Assembly: GCA_964016885.1 (NCBI GenBank)
Contig: OZ024743.1
Span: 216,194,001 to 216,258,000, forward strand
Direction of reading: 5' to 3'
Origin: Eledone cirrhosa
Taxonomy: Eukaryota
DNA length: 64,000 nt
The position numbers and the translations under genes are program-made. Within the stretch, counting starts at the first letter, position 1. Each line of letters starts with the position of its first letter. Below are positions 12,677 to 48,828 of the stretch, piece by piece. The notes beneath the pieces are model-generated. The model searched no databases, was not told where the DNA came from, and worked only from the letters and a program-made list of their open reading frames with translations.

Positions 12677-12862
12677 CGTTTCTACATTTGGCACAAGGCC
12701 AGCAATTACCCAGTGCCTTACACGTACTTTATTTTATCCACCCCGTAAGGATGACAGGCAAAATTAACCTTGGCGGGATTTGAACTCAGTATGGAAAGGG
12801 CCGTAACTCTTTGCGTCAAAGCAAGGCGTCCGACCCTCTACCGATATTGCCAATCCACCGAC
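12677..12862 (-). mobile_element. tRNA-derived SINE with (ATT)n tail
   Basis: Minus strand: A-box-like TGGCAATATCGG, B-box GAGTTCAAATCC, central GCCTGTCATCCTTACGGGG domain, 3' CCTTGTGCCAAATGTAGAAAC then (ATT)n. Confidence 0.85.

Positions 12863-12863
<1 letters not shown>

Positions 12864-12916
<53 letters not shown>
12864..12916. repeat. (AAT)n tract; first of the array spacers (others at ~18614, 24618, 25520, 32158, 32419, 38346, 38780, 40517, 40741, 46343, 46556)
   Basis: Direct read. Confidence 0.95.
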
Positions 12917-12917
<1 letters not shown>

Positions 12918-13179
12918 CTTTATTTATTAACCACAAGGTTGACACAAAGTAGACATTAAGGACTGTAAAGGACAACACAGGACAATACAGGACAATACAG
13001 GACGGTACAAATGAGCATTTCTGCGTGTAAAATAAACAAAAAAAACAGAGGATGTAAAAAAATGAAACAATGAAAATTCCCCAATAGGGGGGAGACTTCC
13101 GAGGGACATTCTTGGAGAAAGCCCATTAAAAAAAGCCATGTTGAGCACTTCCCTCATTACCCTGATTTTCCTTTTTAAA

Positions 13180-16100
13180 TGAAATTTCTAAAAGTTAATC
13201 AGTGAATCACCGAAGAGGTAATCTCGTCTTCAGCTCTTTAATCGCGTCCAACATACTATCTCTTTCGCCATGGCCACCAGGCAGATACACATTGCCTGCC
13301 CTCCCGGCTAAAGGAAGAGGGCGGGGAAATCCTTACGATGGACTCAGCTGATAGCTGGATCCGTCCTACACGCGACAGCAGGTGTTCGACATAAACCCAC
13401 AAGTCAGCAATGTTCGGACACTGGACGTGTCCGTGCAGGACGGTTTCGTCGCCCTGCGCGCATCTCGGACAAGCCCGGCTGACGGCACCTCCATGCCTGT
13501 AGAGTTTATACCGAGCAGGCAAAGCTCTTCGGTAGCATTGCGTGGCCAGGGATTTCTGGAAGTTGTCCATAGGCCCCGGCCCAAAAGTTCTTCCGAAGAG
13601 ATTGGCTAGTTGATTTTCGTCGACGACTAGAGTTTCCCCAAGTACGTCGTCGCTCTTCCCCTCCACTAATCCTCTATAGAACGCCAAGTTGGAGTTTCAA
13701 CCGATCACATTGCCCGATTGGTCGAGGGCTGTGAGCGCCTGAAGACATTCCAGTCGCCATGCGCTCACTCTCGGTCTTCGCTTGACCCAGGACTGCAGCT
13801 CTGTCAAGGAGACAAGCTGAGGAAAGCGCGTCTAGCAAAAGGTGACCATACCTAATCACCGTCGAGGAAGACGTGGAGATGTCGTAGCCTGAGCTCGTGT
13901 CTGCGCATCATCAGTCACAGCATTCCCAGCTCTCCACGTAGCGGGTGTTGACAGCAGATGGACCGCCTGACCATCGAGCGCGTCCCTTCCACAAAAAGCG
14001 AAATATCAAACGCTCCAGTGCAGTCAGGCGGGGCTTAGGACAAGGCACGACGGTCAGGTGGTAGTAGATGACGGACGCGATGTACGCGTTAGCCAAATCC
14101 GCTCGACCTTTCAGGGATAGATTCCTCTTCGCCCATTGGTTGAGAGAAGCCAATCTGCTCGTCACCTCGACACAGTTTTTGTCTGTCTGGAGATCCGGAC
14201 TTAACCAGACCACTAGTAATTTAAGCCGTCCGTCCATCCAGTGCCCGACGACGCTTTTGGACGGCATGGACCTGCCGCTCCAGGTGCCGAACTGCAGACC
14301 CACCGACTTTTCCTTGTTGAACATTTCTCCTGTCACCGCTTCGTAATCTCTTAGTGTAGTGCCGATCGCCTCGATGTGTTTTGCGTTCGACACCAGTAAG
14401 GTGACATCGTCCGCATATGCTGACACGGATCTTCCGCAGCCAAGTTCGCGGGGCACCCCCCTGAATGTCTCCAGTTTGTGCAGTAATGGCTCGAGAGTCA
14501 ATACGTACAAGAAGGACGCGAAGGGACATCCTTGGCGGACCGAGCACATGTTGTTGAACGGTTCCGAAAGGTGACCGTTCACTCTCACCACAGAGCAGAT
14601 ATCGCTGTGCATCACAGCCATCCAGGCTCTGAAGACGAGCCCAAAGCCACCCGCCCTCAAGACTTCCGCCAGATAACGATGGTCGACCCTATCGAAAGCT
14701 TTCGACTGATCTAAATTGATCAAGGACCCCCCCCCCCCGTGCCAGGTTCCTTAGCTACCCTCTCCACGATGTATCGCATGAGGTTGAGTATGTCGTCGAT
14801 GGATCTGTCGGGAATGGCGCATGTCTGCGCCTAGTCCAGCAGACCACCAACGACAAACGCCAACTTCTTTGATAGCACCTTGGCCCAAATCTTGAACTCT
14901 GTGTTTAACAGCGTTATGGCCCTGAAATTATCTATGTTATCCTCTCTGTTCGGATCCTTTCCCAGCAGCGTCACCGATCCTCGCATCACAGAGCTAGGAA
15001 TTCTCCCGTTCCATTGCCAGTTGCAGCAGACGTCGGCCAAGAGGCCTCCGAACAAGTCTGGTATTTGTAGTAAAGTTCATAGGGCAGACCATCCAAACCA
15101 GGCGAAACCCCTTCTGCAGCCAGTCATTGCCTCCCGTACCTCAGCTGCTGTTATCGGTTTTTTGCAACACTCCGCCTCAATGGCCAAGAGCCGTGGCAGT
15201 CCGTCGAGGTAGACACTAAAGTCCATCTCCCGACACGGCTCGCCGCTGCCCCCGAACAGCTGAGCGAAGGAGTCGCTGAAAACCATCACACATTTGCTCG
15301 GGATCGAGTAGCATGCGCGCGTCGTGATCCACCAAAGACCGGATCGTGGCGTTGTTGCGAGGACGCGCCTCCGCCACTCGAGCCCATTGAACGGCTCTGA
15401 GAGCACGCACCCTAGCTCTGACAACGCTGCCGTCTTGCTTTCAATTGAATAATTGGTCAAGGGCCAATTTCGCCGCAAGTATGTCGGTCGTGATGCCTCT
15501 GCTATGCGCCTTGTCTAATTTTCTGACTAGTTCTCCTTCTGCGCTATTTTTCTCCATTGCTAAAGCCTTACTAAACCTAATGGACTCGATTTTAATCGCA
15601 CATTTCAGAGCAAACCACCACTTGTCGTTGACGATGGCCTCCGTCAACGCCCGCTTAACTAGTTCGCTAATCCCGTCTCTGTAGGCTTTGCGCGCTGGTA
15701 ATGACGCGTTTAGCTTCCAGTAGCCGGGTCCTTGTCTATGAAGCTTATCTATATCAACCACACACATCACTAATTTGTGGTCCGTGTAGCTGACTATCTT
15801 AAATTGTTGACAGCCTATGCTAGACCTATCTATTTCCCTACAAAATATTCTATCTAGATATGATCTGGATAGCCCAATGCGGTTTGTCCAAGACCACATT
15901 GGCGCGTTCGGGAAATCCAATCGGTACCTGTCAGACAGTTCAAAACACCTCAGCACGTTGGTGAGGCTCTTGCAGCCTCCTCCCTTATCCGCTAATCCTA
16001 CACAGTCCCAGCGTGCAGCTAAGAACCCGTTCCAGTCGCCCACTAACACTAAAGAGCGGTACGTTCCAAGAAAGGTCTCCAGACGCGGGAAGAAATCAGA

Positions 16101-16439
16101 CCGCCCTGCTCCTGTCGGGGCATAGACGGTCACTAGCCTGAAAGCTTGCCCGTCTCCGCTGGTCACGTCCAGCACCACCAACTTACCTTCTGGGTCCAGG
16201 AAGATGGCCCGTATGGCGAGATCCAAACCTCTCCGAAAAGGCACAGCAACTCCTCCCCCCGATCCAAGACGGCTGGGAGATGCGTACACAAGATCGGTGC
16301 GAAGGCCCGTGCTTCGGAGATTCTGGTCTCGCTGATGGCCACCTATGTTTAGTGACCTGATGTCGTTGAGCATGTGGCCCTGCTTCCATAACGAGCCCAA
16401 GCCACGCGCATTTATGCTGCCTATTCTGAGTGAGGTCAT
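13180..16439 (-). pseudogene. Tx1 ORF2 (APE-RT), frameshifted
   Basis: ORF pieces 15441-16439, 13911-14723 and 13256-13687. Confidence 0.9.
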
Positions 16440-16473
16440 GTTGAAAAGGAGTGGAAAAGATGGGAAAGACCAC

Positions 16474-18423
16474 TTACCTTATTTCTCGTAGAGGAAGGAA
16501 GGTTTCTCCATCCTTATCACTGCTTGTGGCCTCCTCCGGAAGGATGTTCTTTTAAATCCGCCTGGAGAGTGATTGTCGGAAGTCTCCGATGTCCTTGGGG
16601 AATTTTTGTTTTAGTGTCGTGTACGTTTTCTGTGTGATGCAAGTGATTTGTATGTGTGAAGTGGTGTGAATTTTTGGGGTGTTGTGTAGTCTTTTTATGT
16701 GATGCTGGTGTTGTGTTGGATGTAGTGTAATAATTGGTTGTTGATCAAATTTAATGCTGTGTAGTGTGTATCGTTCTGGTTGTTTTGTTTTGTTTGCGTT
16801 CGTTGTGGGTTTGTTTCTATTTCGCTTTTTGGTGACTTTTGTGGTGTTGGTGATGGTGGTGTTGGTGTTAATGATGGTGATGGTGTTGGTGTTTGTGGTG
16901 ATCGGGTCGGAGATGCTGGTGTTTATGGTGGTATTGGTGTCCTAACTTTTTTGTTTGTTAGTTTATTTGTTTACCCCTGTATTTTGTTTTTGAAGGTGGA
17001 AGGAAGAGGATTTTTTTCTTTTTGGGCTTCTTTTTCGTTTTTTCTTTTTTCCTGATACAGTTTCTCATTCCTCGTCGTCACAAACTGTCTCCAGTTGCGA
17101 TAGATCGGGGAGTGAAAAATCCTCCACATGCGTTGGTTTTGGTTGTGGCGTGGTGGATGGTGGAGGCACTGGTGGTAGTTCTGGCGCGGTGGGTGGTGGT
17201 GGTGTTGGTTTTGCTGCTGTTGCTGGTGTTGTTGCTGCTACAGTTGTTGCTGCCATTTCTGCTGCTGGTGGTGTTGATGGTTGAGTCACTGGTGTGGGTA
17301 AGAGAGGTAGCCTCAACATTTTAGTCTGCGGACAGAAAGCATTTAGGTGGGTTCCTTCACCACAAACGACACACCTAGGCCTTCTACCCTCAACGATTAC
17401 GGTGAGGTGGCTGCCGTCAGTGAGGTCTATCACCTCTGGGATTTCCTCAATGCTTTTTTGGTCCGCTTGGATCAGGACCTACATCCCAGATCCGGACCAG
17501 TTCTCCTGCTTTTCTTTTGTTATTTCAATTATTTTCGTGTTGGCCTCGATGCCGACGAGGACGGCAGCCATTAGCCAAGGAATTCCGATGGCCGGTGGAA
17601 CTTGGGTCACCCTGATCTTCACGAGTCACTGGCCACAATAGCTTGGGACGAGTGTGAATTCGTCGCTTCTTAATGGAGCCATGGAGTGCTCTCTGGCTTC
17701 CTGTGGTGTTCCAAAGAACACGTCGTTGGTTCCATATATTTTCCAACGTCTGATGTGGGGTTCTTTTGCCCACACATGTCCCAAAGCTTTTTGTATTTGG
17801 GACTCGTTCCACTCGGCGTGATTTTATGTTTCTCGTCCGATAAGACACGGTGCACAGGCGCCGATGCTCCATTTTATTATTGGGGGGCTAACCCTGTACC
17901 CATCATTTTTTACCATTCTCTTGGCTTCATTTAATTCATCCTGGCTTACCTCGATTGTTCGCTTTTCTTGGCTGCTTTGGCAAACGACACATTTTTTTTC
18001 GGTGATGTTGATGTCGTTATTCTCATTGTTGTTGTTGCTGTTGTTGTTATTGTTATTTTTAGTTTCAGTTGTGGTGGTGTCAGTGGTGTTCGGCGTGGAA
18101 GAGTCGATTCTGGGTGAATCCATTTCGATGTCACGAAAAAATAATTTATTTTGTGGGGTACCTCTTGTCGCTGTGGTGGTGGTGGTGGCATCAGGGGTGT
18201 TCGTTGTTCTTTTTGACATTGTGGTGTTTCGGGTGGCGGTTTTAACACCTACAGTTATTGGTAATGGCGGGAAATTCATGTCTTTATGCGGCAAATTTAA
18301 ATAATTCAGACTGCTTGTAATTATATTTTCAGTGTTGGCATCCGTGGCAAGGCTTACAATGGTGTTCGTGGTGGTGGGGGAGGAGGGTGTTGGTCTGGTA
18401 AAAACAGTAAATTTGTCGTCCAT
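16474..18423 (-). pseudogene. Tx1 ORF1 (nucleic-acid binding, CCHC knuckle), frameshifted
   Basis: VIVEGRRPRCVVCGEGTHLNAFCP and Pro/Thr-rich linker; homologous to 36827-37594. Confidence 0.8.
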
Positions 18424-18640
18424 GTTCTTTTTCCAAAGAAATATTTTGTTTGATGAATAACAAGTTTAAGTTTTGGGTTAAAGGCTCCAATATATGTTTG
18501 TGTCCTTTTCAGAAAGCAATATATGTGAACTTCCATAACAGGTAATTTGAAACAACTGAAAACAACAAACATTTACGGAGCTCACGATAATACGATTTGC
18601 TACGTAGGTCTCCAATAATAATAATAATAATAATAATAAT

Positions 18641-21600
18641 GATTTCTTTATTGGTCACAAGGGCTGACATCAAGAAAAACATCACAGGCGGAAGAGGACG
18701 GTACGATGTGGGTTTTGTGCGTGTAAATATGTTTATTATTTATATAAGAAAAGAAAGAAAAGACATAAACCATATATATATATATAAACAATAAAATGAA
18801 AATTGAAACAATGAAAAATTCCAAAATAGGAGGAAAACCTTCGAGGGTTGCTCGTGGCGAAAACCACACAAAAAACCACGGCCACCCTGACTACCAGGGC
18901 AAGCGCCCTCTCTCAATTTTTCCATCTCTCAAACTACAGGCGTATATTCAGAGTGGTCCCGTTCACTCGGACCATTCTCGCTACATTCACCTACCTTTCA
19001 ACAAACTTGCTAGAAAGCAGCACTTGCCTCTCCACCCTGATTTCCTCTTCAAGCGAAACTTGAAAAAGTCAATTAGGGATTCGCCGAAGAGGAAAGTGTT
19101 TGTCTTTAATCCTTTTAAGCTTGTCCACCACACAATCTCTTTCGCCATGGCCACCAGGCAGATGAAAACCGCCTGCCCTTCCTCTTCGAAGGAAGACGGC
19201 GAGACCATCTGCACAATGGACTTAGTCGACAACCGGATCAGTCCCACACGCGACATCAAATGTTCGACATAGCTCCACAAGTCAGCAATGCTCGGGCACT
19301 GAACGAGTGCGTGCACAACGGTTTCGTCTCTATGCACGCATCTCGGAAGGCTCGGCTGACGGCACTTCCGTGCCTGTAGAGCTTATCTCGAACCGGCAGC
19401 GCTCTCCGGTAGCACTGCCAGGTCAGGGATTTTTGGAAGTTATCCATAGGCCCCGGGCTGAAAGTTCTCCGGAAGAGAGCAAACAGCTGATCTTCTTCGA
19501 CGCCCAGAATCTCTCCGAGAATGTCATCGCTCTTCCCCTCCACTAGTCCTCTATAGAACGCCGATGTGGATGTTCCACCCATACTGGTGCCCAACTGGGA
19601 GAGGGCAGTGAGCGCTTGGAGACATTCCAGTTTCCAAGCACTATCCCTCGGTCTTTTTCTGACCCAGGACGGCAGCTCCGTCAAGGAGACGAGCTGTGGG
19701 AAAATGTGCCTGGCGAACGGCGACCACACCCGTTCACCATCAAGGAGCACCAGATATGTCGCAGCTTCAGCGCATGTTTGCGTATCATCAGCCATGCAAC
19801 GCCCAGTCCGCCACGCAACGGGTGTTGACAGCAGATGGATCGTCTGACCATAGGAGCGCGTCCCTCCACAAATAGCGGAAGAGGAGGCGCTCCATTTTGG
19901 TGAGAGTTGGGCTGGAGCAAAGCACGACGGTGAGGCGGTAGCAGATGACGGATGTGATGTATGCATTTGCCACTTCCGCCCGACCTTTCAGGGACAGCTT
20001 CCTCTCAGCCCATTTCTGGGTGAGGGAAGCCACCCTGCTCGTCACCTCGTTCCAGTTTTTCTCCATCTGGAGGTCCGGTCCGAACCAGACCCCGAGGAAT
20101 TTAACCGGTCTGTCCGTCCAACGCCCCACGACGCTGTCGGACGGCATGGACTTGCCTCTCCAGGTGCCTAGCTGCAAGCCCACCGTCTTTTCCTGGTTTA
20201 TCTTTGCTCATGTCACCGCTTCGTATTCCTTGAGAGCGGTGCCGAGCATCTGGACGTGCCTGGTGCTCGACACCACCACGGTGACGTCATCAGCGTAAGC
20301 CGACTCGGATTTCCCGCATCCTAGTTCGCGTGGGACGCCCCTCATCGCGTCCAGTTTGTGCAGTAACGGCTCGAGAGCCAATACGTACAAGAGGGACGAG
20401 AGGGGACAACCCTGGCGGACTAAGCGCATGATGCTGAACGGCTGCGACAGGTAACCGTTCACCCTCACAACTGAGCAGATGTCGCTGTACATTGCTGCGA
20501 TCCAACGCCTGAAAACGGGCCCGAAACCGGCTGCCTCGAGGACCGCCACCAGGTACCGATGGTCGAGCCTCTCGAATGCTTTGGAGTGATCCAAGTTGAT
20601 CAGGGCCCCACCCTTGCCAGGTTCCTTAAACACCCTCTCTATGATGTATCGCATGAGGTGGAGGTTGTCGTGTATGGATCTGTCCGAGATGGCGCATGTC
20701 TGCGCCTCTCCCACCAGACCCTTGACGACAAGCGCCAACCTCGTTGCTAACACTTGGTCAAAATCTTGAACTCTGCGTTTAGCAGAATTATGGGCCTGAA
20801 ATTATCAATAAAATCCACCTTGTTCGGATCTTATCTCAGCAGCGCCACTGCTCCCCGGATCACAAACCTGGGAATGCTCCCGTTCTGCTGCCAGTTTCAG
20901 TAGACGTCTGCCAAGAGGTCACCGAACAAGTCTGGCATAAATGCATAAAGCTCGTAGGGCAGACCATCTAAACCTGGCGATTTACCTCTTGTGCAGTTAG
21001 CCATCGCTTCCCGTATTTCACCGGCTGTTATTGGCTTTTCGCAACACTGTGCTGCGGTCGTCGAGAGCCGAGGCAGTCCGTCGAGATATGCACTGAAGTG
21101 CATGTCCCGATCCGGGCCGCCGACACTCCCGAACAGTTCAGCAAAGTGCTGCTGAAAAGCTTCACACATACGCTCGGGTTTGAGCATCACTCACCCGTTT
21201 GGGTCAGACAAAGACCGAATTGTGGCTTTATTGCCACGTCGCGCCTCTGCCACCCGGGCCCATTGGACGGCTTTTGTTCCCTCGTGTTTCAGAGCACGCG
21301 CTCTAGCTCTGACAACGCAGCCTTCGTGTTTTGCGTTGAAGAATTGGTCGAGGGCCAATCTCGCTGCAAGCACGTCGGTTGTGATGCCTGTCCTAAACGC
21401 CTCTTCTAGCTTTCTGACTAGCTCTCCCTCTACTCTATTTTCCTCTATCACTACTCCTTTGCTAAACCTAATCGACTCTACTTTAATTGCCCTTTTCAGG
21501 GCGAACCACCACCTGTTGTTGACGACCGCTCCCGTCAACGCCCGCTTAACTAATACGCTAATCCGGTCTCTGTAGGCCTTGCGCGCCAGGAAAGACGCGT

Positions 21601-24600
21601 TCAGCTTCCAGTAACCAGGCCCTTGTCTATGAAGTCTGTCTATGTCGATGTCACAGATCACAAATTTGCGATCTGTGTGGTCGACTATTTTAAATTGTAG
21701 ACAATTTATACTAGCCTTATCTAGTTCCCTGCAGAATACCCTATCTAGATACGATATGGATGACCCGATGCGGTTTGTCCATGTCCACATTGGCACATTC
21801 GGGTCATCCAGTCGATACCTGTCAGACAGTTCAAAACGTATGAGCAGGTTGGTGAGGCTCTTGCACCCTCTTCCCTTATCATCTAGCCCACACGATCGCA
21901 GCGTGCATCCAATATACCGTTCCAGTCGACCACTAACACTAAAGAGCGGGACGTTCCAAGAAAGGTCTCTAGACGTCTGAAGAAATCTGGCCGTCCTTCC
22001 TCTGTTGGGGCGTAGACGGCTACTAGCCTGAAAGCATTGCCTTCGCTGCCGGTCACGTCCAACACCACCGACTCAACTTCTGGGTCCAGGAAGATGGCCC
22101 GTATCGCGAGATCCAAGCCTCTCCGAAAAAGGACGACAACCCCTCCCACCCGATCCTGGACGGCTGGGAGATGCGTATACATCGTAGCCGCCGAAGATCG
22201 GTGCGAACGCCCGTGCCTCGGATATTCTGGTTTCACTGATGGCGACCACATCTATGTTTAGTGACCTGATGTCATTGAGCAGGTAACCCTGCTTCCAAGA
22301 TGACCCCAGGCCACGTCCATTTATACTTCCTATTCTGAGTACAGCCATGTTGGATGAGAAACGGGACAAATGATAAAGGGTCACATACCTTGTTCGTGTG
22401 GTGAAGGGACAGTAGAACCGTCCCTTTCGCTGGTCATGGGTGTTTCCAAGAGGATGTCAGTGTATATCCTCTTGGTAACCGTCCCTCTGAAGTCTCCAAC
22501 TGCGTTGGGGAATTTTTGTTTTAAAGGTTTGTATTGTTCTAATGAGATTTCGCTGATGCTTATGTTTGTCGGGAGAGTTCTTGGTGTTGGTGGGGTGTAG
22601 TAATTTTTTTCCGTGATGCCTGTGTGCTGCTTTATATATTTTATTAGTTCTTTTCTTGCTATGTTTATGGCTGTGTACCTTTTGCGTTGAGGGGTGATTT
22701 TGTGGCCGTTTTCTTCTTGTTACTGTTTGGTGTGTGTGTCTTGTTGTGTTTGCGTTGTTGGTGCTTGTGGTGGTGTTGCTGCAAGTTTCCTTGCTGACTT
22801 TACCCGTCTTTGTATGCCTTTTCTTTTGGAGGGTGAATCTAAGGTCTTTTTTTGCTTTTTGTGGCAGACTGTTTGCCACGTCACTCCCGCCTCAAAGTCC
22901 ATGTCGGATTCTGTGGCGTCTGGGAGGGTATGTGCTCCACGGCTGTTGGTGGTGGTAGTGGAGCCCCCTTCGGCAATGTTGTTGCTGGTGTAGCTATTTT
23001 AAATGTAGCTATTGGTGTTGCCGCTACTGATGCTGCTGCTTTAGTTATCCGTGGCCTTGGTATGGGTACTACGGACGTTGCCCTCCTACTCACCGTGGAA
23101 GGGGATTCTTCGTTTGTTGCCTGTCCTGCTCTTGGTAGCAGCGGACCAGGTATTGGAAGGAGAGGGGCCCTCTTCGGTGTCTTCTGTGGGCAAAAGGCCC
23201 TGAGGTGACCTTTCGACCCACAGAGATAACATTTTGGCCGTCTTCCTTCTACACTTATAGGGAGTTGGAGTCCTTCCTCAAAGTCTATGATATCGGGGAT
23301 AGCCTCGATACATTCCTGGTCAGTTTGTATAAGCATTTGCATGCCTATACCTGACCAGATCTTTCTCCCTATTTTTCTACTTGCAGCATGGTCGTCCTGT
23401 TCTCAATTCCAGCAAGGACAGACGCGGCCAGCCAAGGTATGAGCACGTCGGGTGGGACCCGGGTCACTTTGACCCTCACAATTTTCTGCCCGCAGTAGGA
23501 GGGCACCAAGACTAACTCCTCACTCTTTAGGGTTTCCAAAGAGTGAAACTTTACTTCCTGGGGTGTGGCGAAAGAACGTCTACTGTGGCGTACTTTCTGC
23601 CTCGGGTGATGTGGGTTTTGCGTGCCCAGACGCACCCCAAGGCCTTTTGGATTTGAGCCTCCGTGGCTCTCTCGACTCGATGTGAGATTTTGCTTACGGT
23701 GCGGTAAGTCACCGTTCGTAGCTGCTGGTCCTTGAAAAAATCGGGTGGAGGTTTCAGGGAGACTCTATTTGCGCTTCTTGTCACCATGGCCCTTGCGACT
23801 GCCATCTCCTCCTCTGTGACTAACACTGTCTCGATATTTCGGGCGACACCTGCAAAAGAAGTGGTCCCTTTTTCAGCAGCACCACTATTGCTGCCGTTAC
23901 TGGTCTTACTGGTGGTGCTGAGGTCGCTATTACAGGTATTGGTGTCATTGTTGTTCTTTTCGCTGGTACAGTTGTTGGTGTTGTTTTCGTTGATACTGTT
24001 GCTGCTGTTACTGTTATTGTGGTTGTTGTTATTATTGTTATTTTTGTTGATACTGTTCCTACTATTATTGTTGTTGTGGCTGTTGTTATTGTCATTGTTA
24101 TTGTCGTTCTCTACCTTACCGCTGTTATTTTTGTTATTGTCGTTCTCGACCTTACCGCTGTTATTTTTGTTATTGTCGTTCTCGACTTTACCGCTGTTAT
24201 TTTTGGTGTTGTTGTTGGTGTTATAGTTGGTGTTGTTTGTGTTAGAACTATTTGTTGATTTTAAATCTGTAACAATCTTTTTTTCCTTTGTAATATTTTC
24301 GTTTATATTTACCTCCGCTGGAACGCTGTCTTGTTGACATGCTGATAAAGTATCCCCTTCTCTGTGTTGTCTGACAGCGCTCTCTCTCTTTTTTGTGTTA
24401 TCCATGTTGAAATTTTTCAAAAAATATTTTTACCCAAATACGAATACGACACCCCGTAAAGGGGTGACGTATTATTTACTAATGAACCCCTGTATTAGGT
24501 GGGTCACTTCTAAACTTTTATCAAATTTAAAACTTGAATAAAAGATTTAGAACGGTTGAAAAAGAGGTAAAACGTTAAAAAAGACTGCAGGCGATCAGAA

Positions 24601-24617
24601 GCGTGGCTTCAGCAACC
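18641..24617 (-). mobile_element. Tx1-clade element, family Y, full length, disrupted
   Basis: ORF2 from 22348 (MAVLRIGSINGRGL) to 18934 with APE/RT motifs. ORF1 24420-22381 with VEGRRPKCYLCGSKGHLRAFCP. Distinct 5' end; AAT tracts on both sides. Confidence 0.92.
24099..24206 (-). repeat. 3 x 36-bp coding tandem repeat (SGKVENDNNKNN) in family Y ORF1
   Basis: Seen in the translation of ORF 23551-24420 and in the DNA. Confidence 0.85.
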
Positions 24618-24650
<33 letters not shown>

Positions 24651-24653
<3 letters not shown>

Positions 24654-25519: not shown

Positions 25520-25552
25520 ATAACAATAATAATAATAATAATAATAATAATA

Positions 25553-30934: not shown

Positions 30935-31085
30935 AAATTCTTAACCATGCACAGAATGCATCACCCTAAAGCAGATATAGATAGAATATATCTCCCTAGG
31001 AAAGAAGGAGGACGTGGTTTAATCCAGTTAGACGTTGCGTTGAAACCTGCAACAATTAGATTATCTAAGGGAATCACATGATTGG

Positions 31086-31928: not shown

Positions 31929-32185
31929 TGACAAATCCCAGGAAACCTTCGTATAGGAGAAATACAAAAAATAGTACTAATGCCCATATAGTAAGGAAGA
32001 TTCTGTCAATATAAGTACAACACAAGTCTAAACACTAAAATGCATGTGTGAGTATATATGTTCTTTCTTGAACATGGCGGACCTTGTTGTCTCTTGAGGT
32101 CACTGGTTGTGACTTGGTGATAACTCGTATGAACATAAAGCAAGATAAATGCAACTGTAATAATAATAATATTTATAATAATAAT

Positions 32186-32418
32186 GGGAGGTCTAATGAT
32201 TACTTATCGCAAATCCCAGGAAACCCGCGTATAGGAGAAATACAAGATATTACTAATGGGAACTGCCCATATACTAAGGAAGATTCTGTCAATATAAGTA
32301 CATCACAAGTCTAAACACTAAGGATGCATGTGTGAGTATGTATGTTCTTTCTTGAACATGGCGGACCTTGTTGTCTCTTGAGGTCACTGGTTGTGACTTG
32401 GTGATAACTCGTATGAAC
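32186..32418 (+). mobile_element. R4/Dong family A short 3' fragment (terminal ~23 nt missing)
   Basis: Matches 888-1119; AAT tracts on both sides. Confidence 0.85.
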
Positions 32419-32433
32419 AATAATAATAATAAT

Positions 32434-32475
<42 letters not shown>

Positions 32476-32476
<1 letters not shown>

Positions 32477-38345: not shown

Positions 38346-38388
<43 letters not shown>

Positions 38389-38389
<1 letters not shown>

Positions 38390-38778
38390 GGCAAGAATGT
38401 ATCTATAAAAACATTTGAAAAATTGAGCAAGTATAAGGACCTGGAAATAGAAATTGGAAAAATGTGGAAATTGAGAACTAAAACAATACCAGTGGTTGTA
38501 GGCGCTCTGGGAATGATACCTAAGGGGTCTAATGATTACTTATCGCAAATCCCAGGAAACCCGCGTATAGGAGAAATACAAAAGATAGTACTAATGGGAA
38601 CTGCCCATATACTAAGGAAGATTCTGTCAATATATGTACATCACAAATCTAAACACTAAAGATGCATGTGTGAATATGTATGTTCTTTCTTGAACATGGC
38701 GTACCTTGTTGTCTCTTGAGGTCACTGGTTGTGACTTGGTGATAACTCGTATGAACATAAAGCAAGATAAATGCAACT

Positions 38779-38779
<1 letters not shown>
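38389..38779 (+). mobile_element. R4/Dong family A 3' fragment
   Basis: KYKDLEIEIGKMWKL..PVVVGALG..ILRKILSI plus 3'UTR. Confidence 0.88.
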
Positions 38780-38827
<48 letters not shown>

Positions 38828-38861
38828 TAATAATAATAATAATAATGATAATAATATAATA

Positions 38862-40516
38862 ACTATTTCCAAAAGATGATGAACAATTGCACGGACTATT
38901 ATCCACTGTGGAGCAGTTAAGTGATGACATTAAAATGGAGTTTGGAGTAGATAAATGCGCAAAGCAACGTTCATCAGAGGAAAGCTGCTGAAAAGTTCAG
39001 ACATTAATCTTGATCGAGGGAATGTGATAAGAGAACTTGATCGAGAGGAAACTTACAAATATCTACGTGTTTGTGAAGGAGACGGAATCAAGCACTCGAC
39101 AATGAGGGAAAGGATAAGGAAGGAATGTTACCGCAGAGTAGGAGCAATCTTAAGAACGGAATTGAATGCAAGGAATAGGATCGATGCCATAAACACGCTT
39201 GCCATACCAGTAGTAACCTACAGTTACAATGTCATCAACTGGTCAAGCACAGAGATCCGTAGGCTCGATAAAAAATTCGAACATTCTTAACCATGCACAG
39301 AATGCATCACCCTAAGGCAGATACAGATAGAATATATCTCCCTAGGAAAGAAGGAGGACGTGGGTTAATCCAGTTAGACATTGCGTTGAAACCTGCAACA
39401 ATTAGATTATCTAAGGGAATCACATGATTGGATGATCAAACTCGTTTTGAAACACGAAAATATCAAAAGATCATACTCCATTACAAAAGATGCACAAATA
39501 TACAGTAATGGACTACAAATTTCAGAAGTCCCATTTTCTGCTGAAATGGAAAACACAGAAAAAGCAAAGCAGGTAAAAGTAACTGCAAAGAAAGAACTGC
39601 TACAGAAACTGGCTAAGAAATGGCAAGAAAAGCCTCTGTATGGAAAATAACCAGAACCAGCTTACAACCACTGATGTTGACAAAACTTTAACCCATCAGT
39701 GGTTGGCATCCGCTGGACTGAAATCAGAGACTGAAGGTCTGATTATATCAGCACAAGATCAGTGTCTGCCAACAAAATATTACCAAGCCAACATAATAAA
39801 AAATGGATGCAGCCCATTATGCCGTGTATGTAAAAAACAACGAGAGACCATTGACCATATAATTTCAATGTGCAGTCCTATAGCTCCAATCGAATGACAG
39901 AGCTGCACAATACATATATTGGATAATGTGTAAACATTTTGACCTGCCCCATCAAAAGAATTGGTGGCAGCATCAACCACCTCCCATACTTGAAAAATAT
40001 CACATTTCAATCTTGTGGAACTTTAGCATCCAAACAGACCGAAAAATAGATGCAAATAGACCTGATATAATATTGAAGGACTTTAAAATGAGGGTATGCC
40101 TGCTAATTGATATGGCCGTTCCAATAGACAAGAATCTATCTGTAAAAACATTTGAAAAATTGGGCAAGTATAAGGACCTGGAGATAGAAATTAGAAAATG
40201 TGGAAATTGAGAACTAAAACAATACCAGTGGTTGTAGGCGCTTTGGGAATGATACCTAAGGGGTCTAATGATTACTTATCGCAAATCCCAGGAAACCCGC
40301 ATATAGGAGAAATACAAAAGATAGTACTAATGGGAACTGCCCATATATTAAGGAAGATTCTGTCAATATAAGTACATCACAAGTCAAAACACCTAAAGAT
40401 GCATGTGTGATTATGTATGTTCTTTCTGGACCATGGCGGACCTTGTTGTCTCTTGAGGTCACTGGTTGTGACTTGGTGATAACTCGTATGAACATAAAGC
40501 AAGATAAATGCAGCTG
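38862..40516 (+). mobile_element. R4/Dong family A 5'-truncated copy
   Basis: Starts just after the RT YMDD motif; contains knuckle and RLE; ends GCAGCTG-(TAA)n. Confidence 0.9.
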
Positions 40517-40529
40517 TAATAATAATAAC

Positions 40530-40740
40530 AGGCGCACTAGGTACTCTCCCAAAAAGTTTCCAGGGATGGTTAAAGAAAATTGGCCCCGCCCTGCTTTTTG
40601 GGACACTTCGAAAGGCATTCTTGCTGGGAACAGCAAGAACCCTCCGATACGTCCTGAATATATGAGACTGCAGGTAGTGGCTTGATATTCATTTCAACAA
40701 ACTTTCCAGTTAACTAACATCAATGACTGAGACTCAAAGA
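40530..40740 (+). mobile_element. R4/Dong family B 3' fragment
   Basis: Matches 25308-25519. Confidence 0.88.
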
Positions 40741-40760
40741 ATAATAATAATAATAATAAT

Positions 40761-43700
40761 GGTTTCTTTATTAACCACAAGGGTTTACATAAAGTAGACA
40801 TTAAGGAAAGTGCAGGACAATACAGGACGGTACAAATGGGCATTTCTACGTGTAAAAAACAAAAACAGAGGATGTAACTAAAAAATAACAATGAAAGATT
40901 CCCCAATAGTGGGGAGACTTCCGAGGGACATTTGTGGAGAAAGACCATTAAAAAGCCACAGTGACCCTGCCCTCTCCCAGTTTTCCACCTTTAACTTACA
41001 GACACATACTGAGAGTAGGCCCATTCACTCGGGACATTCTTGCCTCTGTCACCCATCTTTCAACAAAATGCTTGGGAGAGAGCACTTCCCTTTCTACCCT
41101 GATTTTCCTTTTCAAATGAAATTTGAAAAAGGTAATCAGGGCATCACCGAAGAGGTAAGTGCTTCGCTTCAGCCCTTTCAAACGTTTGCACTATACTATC
41201 TATTTCGCCATGGCCACCAGACAGATAAACACTTCCTGCCCTTCCCGGCTAAAGGAAGAGGGCGTGGCCATCCTCACGATGGAGTCAGCTGATAGCTGGA
41301 TCCGTCCTACACGCGACAGCAGGTGTTCGACATAAACCCACAAATCAGCAATGCTCGGACACTGGACGAGTGCGTGCAGGAAGGTTTCGTCGCCCTGCGC
41401 GCATCTCGGACATGCCCGGCTGACGGCACCTCCATGCCTGTAGAGTTTATCCCGAACTGGCAAAGCCCTTCGGTAGCACTGCCAGGCCAGGGATTATTGA
41501 ATGTTGTCCATAGGCCCCGGCCCGAAAGTTCTTCCGAAGAGATTGGCTAGTTGATTTTCGTCGACGTCTAGAGTTTCCCCAAGTACGTCGTCGCTCTTCC
41601 CCTTCACTGATTCTCTATAGAACGCCAAGTTGGAGTATCCACCGATCACATTGCCCGATTGGTCGATTTCTGTGAGCGCCTGAAGAAATTCCAGTCTTCA
41701 AGCGATCCCTCTCGGTCTTCGCTTGACCCAGGACTGCAGCTCCTTCAAGGAGACGAGCTGGGGAAATACGTGTCTAGCAAACGGCGACAACAACTGATCA
41801 CCGTCAAGGAAGAGGTGGAGATGTCGTAGCCTGAGCTCGTGTCTGCGCATCATCAGCCACAGCATTCCCAGCCCTCCACGTAGCGGGTGTTGACAGCAGA
41901 TTAACCGCCTGACCATCTGAGCGCGTCCCTTCCACGAAAAGCGAAAGAGCAAACGCTCCAGCGCAGTCAGGCAGGGCTTAGGACAAGGTACGACGGTCAG
42001 GCGGTAGTAGATGACGGACGCGATATACGCGTTAGCCATCTTCGCTCGACTTTTCAGGGGTAGCTTCCTCTCCGCCCATTTCTGGGTGAGAGAAGCCACC
42101 CTGCTCGTCACCTCGTCCCAGCTTTTGTCCGTCTGGAGGTCCGGACCGAACCAGACCCCGAGCAATTTAACCGCTCCGTCCGTCCAGCGCCCGACGACGC
42201 TGTTTGACGGCATAGACCTGCCTCTCTAGGTGCCGAGCTGCAGGCCCACTAACTTTACCTGGTTGATCATTGCTCCTCTCACCGCTTCGTATTCTCTTAG
42301 TGTAGTGCCGATCGCCTCGATGTGTTTTGCGTTCGACACCAGTACGGTGGCGTCGTCCGCATATGCTGACACGGATCTTTCGCATCCTAGTTCGCACGGG
42401 ACCCCCCTCAACGTCTCCAGTTTGTGCAGTAATGGCTCGAGAGTCAATACGTACAAGAGGGACGAGAGTGACATCCTGGGCGGAACGAGAGCATGATGTT
42501 GAACGGTTCCGAAAGGTGATCGTTCACTCTCACCACAGAGCAGATGTCGCTGTGCATGGCAGAGATCCAGCTCTGGAGACGGGCCCAAAGCCAGCCGCCC
42601 TTAGGACTGCCGCTATGTAGCGATGGTCGATCCTATCGAAAGCTTTCGAATGATCTAAATTGATCAAGGACCCACCCGTGCCAGGTTCCTTAGCTACCGT
42701 CTCTACCATGTATCGCATGAGGTGGAGGTTGTCGTGGATGTATCTGTCGAGAATGGCGCATGCCTGCGCCTCTTCCACCAGACCACCAACGACAAGAGCC
42801 AACCTCTTTGCTAGCACCTTGGCCAAAATCTTGAACTCTGTGTTTAGCAGAGTTATGGGCCTAAAATTATCTATGTTATCCCCCTTGTTCGGATCCTTTC
42901 TCAGCAGCGCCACAGCTCCACGGCTCACAGAGCTGGGAATTCTCCCGTTCTGTTTCCAGTTGCAGTAGACGTCCGCCAAGAGGCCTCCGAACAAGTCTGG
43001 CATATGTACGTAAAGTTAATAGGGCAGACCATCCAATCCGGGCGATTTACCCCTTGTGCAGCCAGTCATTGCCTCCCGTACTTCAGCGGCTGTTATCGGC
43101 TTTTCGCAACACTCCGGCTCAGTGGCCGAGTGCGGCGGCAGTCCGTCGAGGTAGACACTAAAATCCATCCCTCGATCCGGCCCGCCGCTGCCCCCTAACA
43201 GCTGTAAGAAGTGTCGCTGAAAAGCTTCACACATTTGTCCGGGATCGAGTAGCATGCACCCGTCGTGGTCCACCAAAGACCGGATCGTGGATTTGTTGCA
43301 ACGACGCGTGTCCGCCACTCGGGCTCATTGAACGGCTTTCGTCCCCTCGTGTCTGAGAGCACGCACCCTAGCTCTGACAACGCCGCCTTCGTGCTTTCAA
43401 TTGAAGAATTGTTCATGGGCCAATTTCGCCGCAAGTATGTCGGTAGCGATGCCTTTGCTGAGCGCCTCGTCTAATTTTCTAACTAATTCTCCCTCTGCTC
43501 TATTTTTCTCTATTGCTAAAGCCTTACTAAACCTAATGGACTCTATTATAATTGCTCTTTTCAGAGCAAACCACCACTTGCTATTGACGATGTCCCCCGT
43601 CAACGCCCGCTTAACTAGTTCGCTAACCCGGTCTCTGTAGGCCTTGCATGCTGGTAAGGACGCGTTTCGCTTCCAGTAGTCGGTCGTCTCATATGAAGCC

Positions 43701-46342
43701 TATCTAAGTCAAGCACACAGATCACGAATTTGTGGTCCGTGTAGCTGACTATCTTTAATTGTGGACAGCCTATCTATTTCCCTACAAAATACTCTATCTA
43801 GATATGATCTGGATGACCCTACGATATTAGTCCAAGTCCACATTGGCACATTCGGGAAATCCAATCGGTACCTGTCAGACAGTTCAAAACATCTGAGCAG
43901 GTTGGTGAGGCTCTTTCACGTTCCTCCCCTATCCGCTAATCCCACACAGTCCCAGCGTGCATCTAAGATCCCGTTCCAGTCGCCTACTAACACTAAAGAG
44001 CGGGACCTTGCAAGAAAGGTCTCCAGACGCCGGAAGAAATCAGGCCGCCCTGCTCCTGTCGGGGCATAGACGGCCACTAGCCTGAAAGCTTGCCCGTCTC
44101 TGCTGGTCACGTCTAGCACCACCAACTTACCTTCTGAGTCCAGGAAGATGGCCCGTATGGTGAGTCCAAACCTCTCCGAAAAAGCACAGCAACTCCACCC
44201 CCGATCACGGACGGCTGGGAGATGCGTAAACATCGTAGCCGCCGAGGATCGGTGCGAAAGCACGCGATTCGGAGATTCTGGTCTCGCTGATGGTCACTAC
44301 ATCTATGTTTAGTTACCTGAGGTCGTTGAGCAGGTGGCCCTGCTTCCATGACAACCGCAAGCCACGAGCATTTATGCTGCTTATTCTGAGTGAGGTCATG
44401 TTGAAATTGAGTGGAAAAGATGGGAAAGACCACTTATCTTACTTCTCGTAGAGGAAGTATGGTTTGTTGTTCAAATTTAATGCTGTGTAGTGTGTATCAT
44501 TTTGGTTGTTTTGTTGTTTTGTTTGCGTTTGTTGTGGGTTTGTTTCTGTTTCGCTTTTTGGTGAATTTTGTGGTGTTGGTGACGGTGGCGTTGGGGTTAA
44601 TGATGGTGATGGTGTTTGTGTTTGTGGTATTGGGGTTGGTAATGCTGGTGTGGATGGTGGCATATCTGTCCTAACTTTTTGTTTGATGGTTTATTTGTTT
44701 CCCGCTGTATTTTGTTTTTGGAAGGGGAAGGAAGAGAATTTTTCTCTTTTTTGGTTTCTACTTTTTCTTTTTTCCTGATACCGCTTCCCACTCCTCGTCG
44801 TCACAATCTGTCTCCAGTTGCGATAAGCAGGGGAGTGGAAAATCCTCCACAGGCGTTGGTTTTGGTTGTGGCGTGCTGGATGGTGTAGGCGCTGGTGCTA
44901 GTTCTGGCGCGCTGGGCGGTGGTGGTGTTGGTTTTGCTACTGTTGCTGCGGTTGTTGCTGTTACAGTTGCTTCTGTTGTTGCTGCTACAGTTGTTGCTGC
45001 CATATCTACTGCTGGTGGTGTTGATGGTTGAGTCACTGTGGTGGGTAAGAGAGGTGGCCTCAACCTTTTAGCCTGAGGGCAGAAAGCCCTTAGGTTGGTT
45101 CCTTCACCACAAACGACACACCTATGCCTTCTGCCCTCGACGATTACGGTGAGGTGGCTACAGTCAGTGAGGTCTATTACCTCTGGGATCTCCTCAATGC
45201 ATTTATGGTCCGCTTGGATCAGATCCGGAACAGTTCTCCTGCTTTTCTTTTGTTATTTCGATTATTTTTGTGTTGGCCTCGATGTCGGCGAGGACGGCAG
45301 CCATTAGCCAGGGAATTTCGATGGCCGGTTAAACGTGGGTCACCCTAATCTTCACGAGTCTCTGGCCACAATAGTTTGGGACGAGTGTGAAGTCGTCACT
45401 TCTTAATGGGGCCATGGAGTGTTCTCTGGCCTCCTGTGGTGTTTCAAAGAACACGTCCACGGTTCCATATTTCTGCCTACGTCGGATGTGGTTTGTTTGC
45501 CCACACATGTCCCAAAGCTTTTTGGATTTGGGACTCGGATGCCCGTTCCACTCGGCGCGATTTTATGTTAATTGTCCGATAAGACACGGTGCATAGGCGA
45601 CGATGCTCCATTTTATTAGGTGTGTGTGTGGGGGGGGGATGAAACTGTACCCATCTTTCTTTGCCATTCTGTTGGCTTCTTCTAATTCTTCCTGAGTTAC
45701 CTGGATCGCCCGCACGTTTTTGCTACTCTGGCAAAACTCAGGGTGGTTTTCTTAATTGCATTGTTGCTGTTGTTGTTATCGTTATTTTTGTTATTATTAA
45801 TTTTAGTTTCAGTTGTGGTGGTGGTGGCCTCAGTGGTGTTCGGTGTGGAAGAGTTTATTTTGGTTGAATTCATTTCGTTATTTACGAGTTAATTTATTTT
45901 TTCTTTTGTTTCTGTTGTCGCTGTGGTGGTGGTGGGGGTAGCGGCTATAACACCTGCGTCATTGGTAATGTCGGGAAATGTATGTCTGCCTGAGACAAAT
46001 TAAAAAAATTGCTACTGCTTATATTTTTTAGTGTTGTCAAACGTAGTAATATTTACAATGGTGGTGTCGGTGTGAGGGGTTAGTTTGTGAGGAAGGCTCT
46101 CAGCTGCTTGGTGCAGCTGTGAGTCGGCCATGATTTTTTCAAAGAAATGTTTTGAAAATTATAACATTTTAAATGTTGGGCACAAGGCCCCAATCCTTTT
46201 GACTGTCCTTTTAAGAAAACAATGTATGTGCACTTATATACAGTTAACAATAAAACACTTTTCATAAATGGCAATTTTAAACAACTGAAAATAACAAATC
46301 TTTGCGGAGTTCACGATAATACGATTTACTACGTAGGTCGCC
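40761..46342 (-). mobile_element. Tx1 family X copy 3, both termini present, internal deletion at the ORF1 end
   Basis: ORF2 44399 to 40996 in pieces; ~240 bp deletion at ~44460 relative to copies 1 and 2; same 5' end as copy 2. Confidence 0.92.
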
Positions 46343-46369
46343 AATAATAATAATAATAGTAATAATAAT

Positions 46370-46554
46370 TGTTTCTACTTTTAGCACAAGGCCAGCAATT
46401 ACCCAGTGCCTTACTGGTACTTTATTTTATCGACCCCGTAAGGATGAAAGGCAAAGTCAACCTCGGCGGGATTTGAACTCAGATCGTAAAGGGACGTAAC
46501 TATGCTGGAAAGCATGGTGTCCGAGCCTCTACCGATACTACCAATCCACCGCCC
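46370..46554 (-). mobile_element. tRNA-derived SINE embedded in (AAT)n
   Basis: Minus strand: TGGTAGTATCGG, GAGTTCAAATCC and GACTTTGCCTTTCATCCTTACGGGGTCGATAAAATAAAGTACC (resembles the Nin/Deu-type SINE core from memory; unverified). Confidence 0.87.
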
Positions 46555-46574
46555 TCAATAATAGTAATAATAAT

Positions 46575-48828
46575 GATTTCATTTATTGGCCACAAGGGCC
46601 GACATATAGGGGACAATACAAAAGACTGGGACAGTGGGGTTTTACAGAAAAATCGAGTAAACAATATGAATATCAATAACAAAGTAACAATGACAAAGTA
46701 ACAATAAAGTAACAAGAAAATTACGAGAAAAAATTCCCCAATAGGGGGGATGACCACCTAGGGTTCGCTCAGGTACCCTACCAGTCCTGAACGACACGAC
46801 GCTTCGAGAGCACCCTGGAAGGGCACCCCTCTCCTCTTCAAATGTACCGACTTACATCCGCATGACCAGAGTAGGCCCACTCACACGGGCCATTCTCGCC
46901 ACATTCGCCCACCTTTCAGCAAATGTACTGGGGGCAGCACTTCTCTCTGCACCCTCACCCTCCTTACCAAGTGAAACTTGAAAAAGTTGATGAGAGATTG
47001 GCCGAAGAGAAAAGTGTCTGTCTTCAGTCCTTTCAACCTCGTCCACCATACAACCTCTTTCGCTACTGCCACCAGACAGAGGAAAATTGCCTGCCCTTCC
47101 TGGTTAAAAGAAAGCGACAGTTCGATCTTCACTATGGACTCGGTCGATAGCCGGATCTGTTCTACACGCGACAACAGCTGTTCAACATAACTCCACAAGT
47201 CAGTAATGCACGGACACTGGACGAGTGGGTGCAGAACGGTTTCGTCGCTCTGCGCGCATCTCGGTCAGGTCCGTCTGACAGCACTTCCGTGCCTGTAGAG
47301 TTTATCTCGAACCGGCAGTGCCCCCGGTAGCACTGCCAAGCGAGTGACTTTTGGAAATTATCCATCGTCCCCGGCTCGAAACTCTTCCGGTACAGACTGG
47401 TTAGTTCGACTTCGTTGACTCCCAGAGCCTCTCCGAGTGCATCGTCGCACTTGACCACCACTAATCCTCTATAGAACTCGAGAGTGGAAGTTCCACTGAC
47501 CACATTGCCCGCCTGGTAGAGGGCAGTGAGTGCCTGGCAACGTTCCAGATGCCAGTCACCCAGTCTCGGTCTCTTCGTGACCCAGGACTGCAACTCAGTC
47601 AAAGAAACGAGCTGCGGAAAGGCCCGTCTGACAAATGGCGACCACACCTGTTCATCGTTTAGGCAGAATATCTGGAGATGCTGCAGCCTCAGCGCGTGCC
47701 TGCGCATCATTAATCACGGCATGCCCAGCCCTCCACGTAGAGGGTGCTGGCAGCAGATGGACTGCCACACCAGCGGAACCTGACCCCTCCACAAGAATTT
47801 GAAGAGGAGCCGCTCCAAGATTGCGAGGCGTGAACGGGGGCAAGAGACGACAATCAGACGGTAGTAGATGACGGACGCGATGTACCCGTTCGCTATCTCC
47901 GCCCGACCTTTCAGTGATAGCTCCATCCCAGCCCATTTCTGGGTGAGACTGACTACCCTGCCAGTCACCTTGTCCCAATTCTTATCCACCTGGAGGTCTG
48001 GCCTGAACTAAACCCCTAGCAACTTTACCGGTCCGTCCGTCCAGTGCCTATAGGCGCTGTTGGACGGCATGGACTTGCCTCTCCAGGTGCTGAGTTGCAA
48101 GCCCACTGACTTTTCCGGGTTAAGTTTGGCTCCCGTCAACCTTTCATATTCCTCCAATAAGTTGTCGACCACCTCGATTTCTGAGGTGTCCGACACCATC
48201 ACGGTGATGTCGTCCGCATAAGCCGACACAGCTTTTCCGCGTCCCGGTTCGAGCGGGATTACCTGCAACAGCTCCAGCTTCCGCAGTAAAGGCTCAAGAG
48301 TCAATACGTACAGAAGGGAGGAGAGAGGGCACTCTTGACTGACCGATCGGGAGACCCGAAACGGTTCTGAGAGGTGGCCATTAATTTAGACCATCGAGCA
48401 GGTGCCGCTGTGCAGTGGAGCGATCCAGCTTCTGAAGATGGAGCCGAAGCCAGCCGCCTTGAGGACAGCCTCCAGGTTCCGATGGTCGACCCTATCGAAT
48501 GCTTTCGATTGATCTAAATTGTTCAGAGCCCCACCGAAGCCAGGTTTTCATCCTACCCTCTCTATGATGTATCGCATTAGGTGGAGATTAACGTGTATGG
48601 ACCTGGTTGGGATTGCGCAAGTTTGCGTCTCCCCAACCAAATCCCCGACGACAAGCGCCAAACTCTTCGCTAACACCCTGGCCAAATTCTTAAACTCTGT
48701 GTTGATCAGAATTATGGCCCTGAAATTGTCTAATGTGTCCCTCTTGTTCACGTCTTTCCTTATCAGCCTCATAACGCCCCAGCTCACAGAACTTGGAATA
48801 CTCCCGTTTTGCTGCCAGTTGCAAACTT
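46575..48828 (-). mobile_element. Tx1-clade family Z, 5'-truncated
   Basis: RT (NFRAIILINTEFK, SAYADD) through C-terminus; distinct 3'UTR; truncated at ~48828 before the APE. Confidence 0.9.

What the first reader, a model, noticed from the sequence alone, without database searches (positions are those of the whole stretch)
12677..48828. 36-kb polarized retroelement community built in one (AAT)n microsatellite
Seen: 14 units in a row (SINE, X, Y, B, B, A, A, X, A, A, B, X, SINE, Z). Every internal junction but one is an (AAT)n tract. All R4/Dong copies are on + (TAA tail); all Tx1 copies and both SINEs are on - (ATT tail). The array at 1-5535 follows the same rule for its three Dong units. 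Established: Dong elements target TAA repeats, Tx1-clade families such as Kibi/Koshi target other microsatellites, and TRAS/SART insert in opposite orientations in insect (TTAGG)n. Inference: two unrelated endonuclease types (RLE and APE) converged on one repeat but nick opposite strands. Each insertion regenerates target, so the array feeds itself. Opposed units could also give dual-strand transcripts.
Basis: partly seen in the sequence, partly recalled or inferred. Interest (0 to 1): 0.75.

Follow-up and report, generated by a model that had tools for sequence, protein, structure and literature searches.

The report
Two LINE classes share AAT repeats
This 36-kb stretch is a stack of 14 jumping-gene copies joined by AAT repeats; across this probably octopus genome, two unrelated retrotransposon types sit in such repeats facing opposite ways, likely because each starts copying from its own strand of the repeat and each insertion leaves fresh repeat for the next.

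Summary
In detail: 14 units, AAT at 12 of 13 internal junctions, R4/Dong-like A and B on +, APE-type Tx1-like X, Y, Z and both SINEs on -. The rule is genome-wide. Full-length 5' ends abut the tract in 29/29 X, 28/29 Y, 25/28 A and 24/29 B copies, against 0.15% of random points. Truncated copies with a tract always have it on their class's strand (16 Tx1-like, 53 R4-like). All 9 in-array copies tested have a closer relative outside the array, so it grew by separate insertions: a sink, not a source or a collapse. Two corrections. The SINE is not tract-specific: 23/29 copies have 9-22 nt target duplications, mostly in unique DNA and ending ATAAT, which places the likely Tx1 nick at ATAAT^R. And such arrays are common: 13 of 20 sampled reach 10 kb. 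Dong/TAA and TRAS/SART polarity are known; an ATT-strand Tx1-like family sharing Dong's target was not found in my searches. This scan has already noted the same thing in at least 8 other windows of this genome. Clade names rest on architecture, not on a tree with named references.

The parts
12668..12676 (+). (AAT)3 at the left outer boundary
12677..12865 (-). SINE copy 1; 3' end shares CCTTGTG..AA..A.GAAA plus ATT tail with X/Y/Z
12866..12916 (+). (AAT)17 junction
12917..18613 (-). X copy 1, Tx1-like LINE (APE, RT), near full length, broken; its 5' 300 nt is only about 72% like other X copies
18614..18640 (+). (AAT)9 junction
18641..24617 (-). Y, Tx1-like LINE, full length, broken; weak zinc-knuckle hit in the first ORF region
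24618..24650 (+). (AAT)11 junction
24651..25524 (+). B, 5'-truncated R4/Dong-like copy (CCHC knuckle and PD..D endonuclease region)
25525..25551 (+). (AAT)9 junction
25552..29263 (+). B, long copy with natural 5' end, 3' part deleted; joins A without AAT
29265..32158 (+). A, R4/Dong-like copy lacking its 5' part; RT and C-terminal endonuclease region
32159..32185 (+). interrupted AAT junction
32186..32418 (+). A, short 5'-truncated copy
32419..32475 (+). (AAT)5+13 junction
32476..38345 (-). X copy 2, full length, broken
38346..38387 (+). (AAT)14 junction
38388..38780 (+). A, 5'-truncated copy, 99% to copies elsewhere
38781..38860 (+). interrupted AAT junction
38861..40517 (+). A, 5'-truncated copy
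40518..40526 (+). (AAT)3 junction
40527..40739 (+). B, short 5'-truncated copy
40740..40760 (+). (AAT)7 junction
40761..46342 (-). X copy 3, near full length, broken
46343..46369 (+). interrupted AAT junction
46370..46556 (-). SINE copy 2
46557..46574 (+). short interrupted AAT junction
46575..48828 (-). Z, Tx1-like LINE, 3' 2.25 kb only; no AAT at its 5' break
1..5535 (+). Right end of a separate array of about 18.5 kb (A, B fragment, A); includes a 5074-bp tandem duplication at 98.6% and, upstream of the window, an X on -

Best explanation
The stretch is a stack of 14 separate retrotransposon insertions joined by AAT repeats, one of many in this genome, and it likely formed because R4/Dong-like elements and Tx1-like elements both target (AAT)n but would prime reverse transcription from opposite strands. 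Shown: A and B always read the AAT strand, X, Y and Z the ATT strand, at both ends. Inferred from target-primed reverse transcription: A/B (restriction-like endonuclease) prime from the ATT strand, and X/Y/Z (APE) from the AAT strand, at ATAAT^R. Each insertion duplicates about 9-22 nt of target (shown for the SINE, seen in 3 LINE copies) and adds a repeat tail, so a tract remains on both sides and the stack can grow. The SINE likely borrows X/Y/Z proteins through a shared 3' end, but needs only the 5-nt motif, so most SINE copies lie in unique DNA. The array is a sink: its copies are broken and their closest relatives lie elsewhere. Deletions, and in other arrays tandem duplication, modify the stacks afterwards.
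For: 5' flanks of full-length copies, with no AAT in the queries and own-window hits left out: X 29/29, Y 28/29, A 25/28 (5 of the 28 are one tandem cluster), B 24/29; background 29/20,000. Truncated or internally broken copies: Tx1-like 16 ATT, 0 AAT, 6 none, 4 other element, 16 set aside as still inside the element (42 in all); R4-like 53 AAT, 0 ATT, 2 none, 4 other element, 36 set aside (95 in all). Protein-level scan of 40 regions: of Tx1-like pieces, 26 have an ATT tract on the 3' side, 0 AAT, 19 none; of R4-like pieces, 19 AAT, 1 ATT (a 5'-inverted B), 8 none. SINE: duplications of 9-22 nt in 23 of 29, 19 ending ATAAT, next base a purine in 20 of 23; shared 3' end with X/Y/Z. Duplicated tract interruptions in L275 (X), L177 (Y) and L234 (A) among 72 copies examined. 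9 of 9 in-array X/A/B copies have a closer relative outside the array. No unique-sequence duplication was seen outside the tracts in the 9 X/Y copies with both ends found among 12 fetched (by eye). Dong targets (TAA)n in insects, molluscs and cnidarians (PMC7998251 passages; PMC3812793 passages).
Against: No cleavage assay; the strand of the nick is inferred. The searches return the 40 best-matching copies, so young copies are favoured. Five B and three A full-length 5' ends lack an adjacent tract: two are 5' inversions whose outer end abuts AAT and one is a deletion junction, while L122, L129, L105, L110 and L112 are only partly explained. Two B copies have a short ATT run between tract and head. 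The SINE's loose targeting shows that the endonuclease alone may not explain why LINEs need a long tract. Tx1-like fragments at 71-74% identity in the arbitrary sample mostly lack AAT tracts. Clade names were not tested with named references.
Confidence: 0.8

Rival explanations
1. Same outcome, different selector: the endonucleases recognise only a short motif or nick either strand, and pairing of the RNA's repeat tail with the primer strand picks both the orientation and the long tract.
For: The SINE, which likely uses the same proteins, needs only about 5 nt (ATAAT) and has a short tail, whereas X/Y 5' flanks carry runs of 3-31 units. Both strands of the repeat contain TpA steps (seen in the sequence).
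Against: A purine follows the SINE duplication in 20 of 23 cases; that base lies beyond any RNA-primer pairing and points to enzyme recognition. PMC4494074 (passages) says target choice is mainly set by the endonuclease.
Confidence: 0.3
2. The 5' tract is carried in the RNA (read-through from an upstream tract), so the elements bring their own microsatellite and need no target.
For: Full-length copies have a tract in fixed phase at the 5' end; head-to-tail stacks allow read-through.
Against: 5'-truncated copies also abut tracts (16 Tx1-like, 53 R4-like). No duplication outside the tracts was seen in 9 copies with both ends. Bombyx Dong self-cleaves at its 5' junction (PMC3774820 passages).
Confidence: 0.06
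3. Insertion is random and copies survive or accumulate passively in AAT-rich, gene-poor DNA.
For: Passive accumulation is proposed for Drosophila Waldo (PMC3812793 passages).
Against: Base-precise junctions in one phase and no truncated copy on the wrong strand among 69 with a tract.
Confidence: 0.03
4. The array comes from tandem duplication or from a mis-assembly of repeats.
For: Such duplications exist: 5074 bp at 98.6% at the window start and at least seven A copies with a 4.9-kb period, one pair 99.3% alike, on C2. No long reads were available.
Against: Inside 12677-48828, X copies are 85-93% alike and A 3' ends 91-96% alike, and each has a closer relative elsewhere.
Confidence: 0.03

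Closest known systems
Dong (R4 clade; Bombyx Dong, DongAg, DongBg, Darwinula Dong1/2)
   Same: RT plus C-terminal CCHC and restriction-like endonuclease, (TAA)n target (PMC7998251, PMC3812793 passages). The 5' junction TAA|G matches the Bombyx Dong junction primer (PMC3774820 passages). Dong-R4 is listed as recently active in Octopus vulgaris (PMC13282606).
   Different: Here at least two families share the target with an APE-type class and build mixed stacks. No 5' ribozyme was detected by Rfam.
Microsatellite-specific Tx1 families: Kibi (TC)n, Koshi (TTC)n, crocodilian (TTCC)n/(TTTC)n families
   Same: APE-RT LINEs inserted in a microsatellite; a Tx1 group shares target preference with its SINEs, some of them loosely (PMC4494074 passages and section 15).
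   Different: The target is (ATT)n, which was not named in the passages read. The figure that lists all targets could not be seen.
TRAS and SART in Bombyx (TTAGG)n
   Same: Two families in one repeat in opposite orientation, forming arrays (PMC10088271 passages).
   Different: Both are R1-clade APE elements at telomeres; here the two classes have unrelated endonucleases and the arrays are spread along the chromosomes.
R1 and R2 in 28S rDNA (recalled, no call)
   Same: An APE element and a restriction-like element share one repeated locus.
   Different: They use separate sites in a gene and the same orientation; they do not regenerate each other's target.

Membership tests
R4/Dong clade (A, B) | RT followed by a CCHC knuckle and a PD-(D/E)xK restriction-like endonuclease, no APE | tested here: met
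   Pfam RVT_1; CxxC..H....C and RPD..D motifs in A and B translations; the closest homologue P0001 matches only R2 proteins in PDB
R4/Dong clade (A, B) | Insertion in (TAA)n on the sense strand | tested here: met
R4/Dong clade (A, B) | RT tree groups with named Dong/R4 | not testable with these tools
   No named reference sequence could be fetched; named hits are generic. One hit is from Pediculus, a species in the R4/Dong alignment of PMC7998251, which is only a hint
R4/Dong clade (A, B) | Divergent N-terminal Myb/SANT domain without zinc fingers | not tested
   Described in PMC7998251; no profile search was run for it
R4/Dong clade (A, B) | HDV-like ribozyme at the 5' end | tested here: inconclusive
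   No Rfam ribozyme hit at E<=0.5; the head shared by A and B is conserved in 37 copies but gives only a weak consensus fold
Tx1 clade (X, Y, Z) | Second ORF with APE, RT and C-terminal zinc motif | tested here: met
   Pfam Exo_endo_phos (below cut-off), RVT_1 and zf-RVT; tblastn map; homologue P0126 best matches L1 ORF2p in PDB. Z holds only the RT-onward part
Tx1 clade (X, Y, Z) | First ORF with a zinc knuckle | tested here: inconclusive
   Weak zf-CCHC hit in Y, 18.9 bits against a cut-off of 20.8; that this marks Tx1 is recalled
Tx1 clade (X, Y, Z) | RT tree groups with Tx1 rather than L1 | not testable with these tools
   No named Tx1 reference was available; L1 group is shown, Tx1 clade is likely
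Tx1 clade (X, Y, Z) | Target sequence preference | tested here: met
Microsatellite-specific SINE | Most copies flanked by the tract at the 5' side | tested here: not met
   4 of 29
SINE partnered with X/Y/Z | Shared 3' tail and shared insertion strand and phase | tested here: met
   mobilisation itself not tested

The most novel reading that the evidence does not exclude
An unreported (ATT)n-specific Tx1 lineage and Dong co-evolved on one microsatellite in octopods and, with a Tx1-driven SINE that seeds new tracts at ATAAT sites, form a three-member system that builds polarised 10-40 kb stacks holding several percent of the genome, each class manufacturing landing sites for the other.
Probability: 0.45. 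Interest if true: 0.6.

Novelty: new variant of a known kind. Interest (0 to 1): 0.45.

Why it matters
It adds a target to the Tx1 list and gives a case where an APE and a restriction-like endonuclease use one three-base repeat from opposite strands, a direct test of whether the enzyme or the RNA tail sets strand choice. The SINE's duplications in unique DNA expose the likely cut site, which pure tracts hide. It may explain part of the TE hotspots and AAT microsatellites of octopus genomes: library matches covered about 20 kb of 200 kb sampled, sister families included. Each ingredient has a precedent, so a specialist would be interested but not startled.

Tried and rejected
1) The 874-bp B copy seemed to have a fixed 5' end in many loci; alignment showed those copies simply continue upstream, so there is no separate short family. 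2) Read support: no long reads and no RNA holder listed; contigs and RAD reads bridge the left flank but cannot span the repeats, so assembly and transcription are untested. 3) Clade naming by cluster names and ESM Atlas gave nothing; the X1 APE region alone found no PDB match. 4) Rfam gave only low-complexity miRNA-type matches below cut-off; ARAGORN found no tRNA, so the SINE head is unclassified. 5) The consensus fold of the A/B head was weak. 6) Literature: searches for Tx1 with ATT repeats (0 papers), Tx1/AAT/Dong, Tx1/Dong/microsatellite, Kibi/Koshi, octopus with Tx1 or Dong-R4, octopus SINE partner (0 papers) and twin priming with Dong (listing only) showed no report of this arrangement. 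Repbase and Kojima and Fujiwara 2004 were not searchable, and PMC309301 is not held. No supplements were read; those of PMC4494074 and PMC13282606 may list such targets.
Full report
Setting. The window lies on contig C4 of a 3.0-Gb assembly. Close named homologues are from octopods, so the animal is probably an octopod.

Observation. Tract mapping and self-alignment give 14 units in the stated order. 12 of 13 internal junctions are AAT tracts. The thirteenth (29263/29265) joins a B that lacks its 3' end to an A that lacks its 5' part, most simply a deletion. The right boundary, the 5' break of Z, has no AAT. A and B carry RT, a CCHC knuckle and a restriction-like endonuclease region on +; X and Y carry APE and RT on -, and Z the RT-onward part. 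Homologues of A match only R2 proteins in PDB; a homologue of X matches L1 ORF2p best. All copies are broken.

Is AAT a target or just a tail? A 3' repeat can be copied from RNA, so the 5' junction is the test. I searched the genome with 5' ends that held no AAT and read the flanks of the 30 loci returned for each, out of 40-41 matches. Leaving out own-window hits, a tract abuts 29/29 X, 28/29 Y (the other looks interrupted), 25/28 A and 24/29 B. Random points do so in 29 of 20,000. Truncated copies agree: Tx1-like 16 ATT, 0 AAT, 10 without a tract, 16 set aside as still inside the element; R4-like 53 AAT, 0 ATT, 6 without, 36 set aside. A protein-level scan of 40 regions gave 26 of 26 Tx1-like pieces with ATT and 19 of 20 R4-like pieces with AAT among those with a 3' tract; 19 and 8 pieces had none. 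The one exception is a 5'-inverted B. Two of the five B exceptions are also 5' inversions whose outer end abuts AAT. In 9 X/Y copies with both ends found, no unique sequence was duplicated outside the tracts, which argues against a tract carried in the RNA.

The SINE. It shares its last 25 or so bases with X, Y and Z, but it is not tract-specific: only 4 of 29 copies have a head-side tract. 23 of 29 show duplications of 9-22 nt; 19 end in ATAAT and 20 are followed by a purine. Under the TPRT model this places the first nick on the AAT strand at ATAAT^R, the same phase as the X/Y junctions, with the second nick some 9-22 nt upstream. That APE domains of L1 and TRAS1 also cut at T^A is recalled, not checked here. 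In LINE copies, duplicated tract interruptions of 12-15 nt were seen in 3 of 72. Target regeneration is therefore well supported for the SINE and modestly for the LINEs.

How the array grew. Each of 9 X, A and B copies tested has a closer relative outside the array than inside; one A is closest to a copy in the neighbouring upstream array. This fits separate insertions over a long period and excludes tandem amplification or collapse for this array. The upstream array and one on C2 do contain tandem duplications; at 98.6-99.3% an assembly cause is not excluded for them. Arrays are common. After the 5' tract, 23 of 29 X and 19 of 29 Y are followed directly by another member. In 20 regions of 20 kb centred on full-length X or Y, 13 chains reach 10 kb and 7 reach 15 kb, 11 run off the edge and 11 mix both classes, with a 1200-bp gap allowed; with 600 bp the figures are 10, 3, 5 and 11. 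This sample is biased towards long elements.

Against the reading. No enzyme assay; best-match sampling favours young copies; five full-length 5' ends are only partly explained; more distant Tx1-like fragments in the arbitrary sample mostly lack AAT, two ending in ATCT-like tails. The SINE's loose targeting leaves open that RNA-tail pairing, not the enzyme, demands the long tract. No long reads or RNA runs were available.

Literature seen. PMC3812793, PMC7998251, PMC3774820, PMC4640811, PMC10088271 and PMC8967140: passages. PMC4494074: passages and section 15; its figure of targets was not visible. PMC13282606: first third of the text and passages; it lists Dong-R4 and L1-Tx1 as recently active in O. 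vulgaris and the word 'target' does not occur. Dong on TAA, Tx1 on other microsatellites and opposite-facing TRAS/SART are all in print. Searches found no ATT-targeting Tx1 and no Dong/Tx1 co-arrays, but Repbase and the 2004 survey were not searchable.

Earlier scan notes. Eight notes from other windows of this genome describe the same pattern. They are not independent support; my reading was set down before I saw them, and they gave me the Darwinula lead.

Verdict. Real, genome-wide and mechanistically coherent; a new variant of known site-specific retrotransposon behaviour. This window is one long example among many. Interest 0.45.

Noticed in passing
L364:4508-6111; L365:4449-7572; L346-L347 (C1:250.531-250.537 Mb): Three B insertions have their 5' part inverted, with the outer end on the AAT tract and the inverted piece running to the element's 5' end, the layout expected from twin priming. 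A search listing showed this mainly for L1.
   Followed up: partly
L368, L369, L370; also L093-L111: Full-length A and B heads are often preceded by (AAG)n runs of up to 59 units between the AAT tract and the element, possibly slippage on the element's AAG-rich start.
   Followed up: partly
window 1297-1420 and 25552-25652: A and B differ too much to align at DNA level except for a shared head of about 120 nt, conserved in 37 copies of three variants; function unknown.
   Followed up: partly
L307:6350-6540; L309:3000-3130: Sister Tx1-like families (72-74% to X/Z) have the same kind of 3' end but ATCT-like tails, hinting at target switching within this lineage.
   Followed up: partly
G000:C2:353.61-353.64 Mb (L116-L120, L371-L372): At least seven head-to-tail full-length A copies with a 4.9-kb period; the pair compared is 99.3% alike.
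   Followed up: partly
window 49799-51685 and 55370-57263: A 1.9-kb inverted repeat at 98.8% identity around a TA-rich low-complexity core; could be a foldback-type element.
   Followed up: no
window 9982-10113 and 61650-61810: Older SINE relatives outside the array; the first appears to have a duplication in unique DNA and no tract.
   Followed up: partly
window 10977-11171 and 11402-11606: A 200-bp inverted repeat at 77% identity.
   Followed up: no
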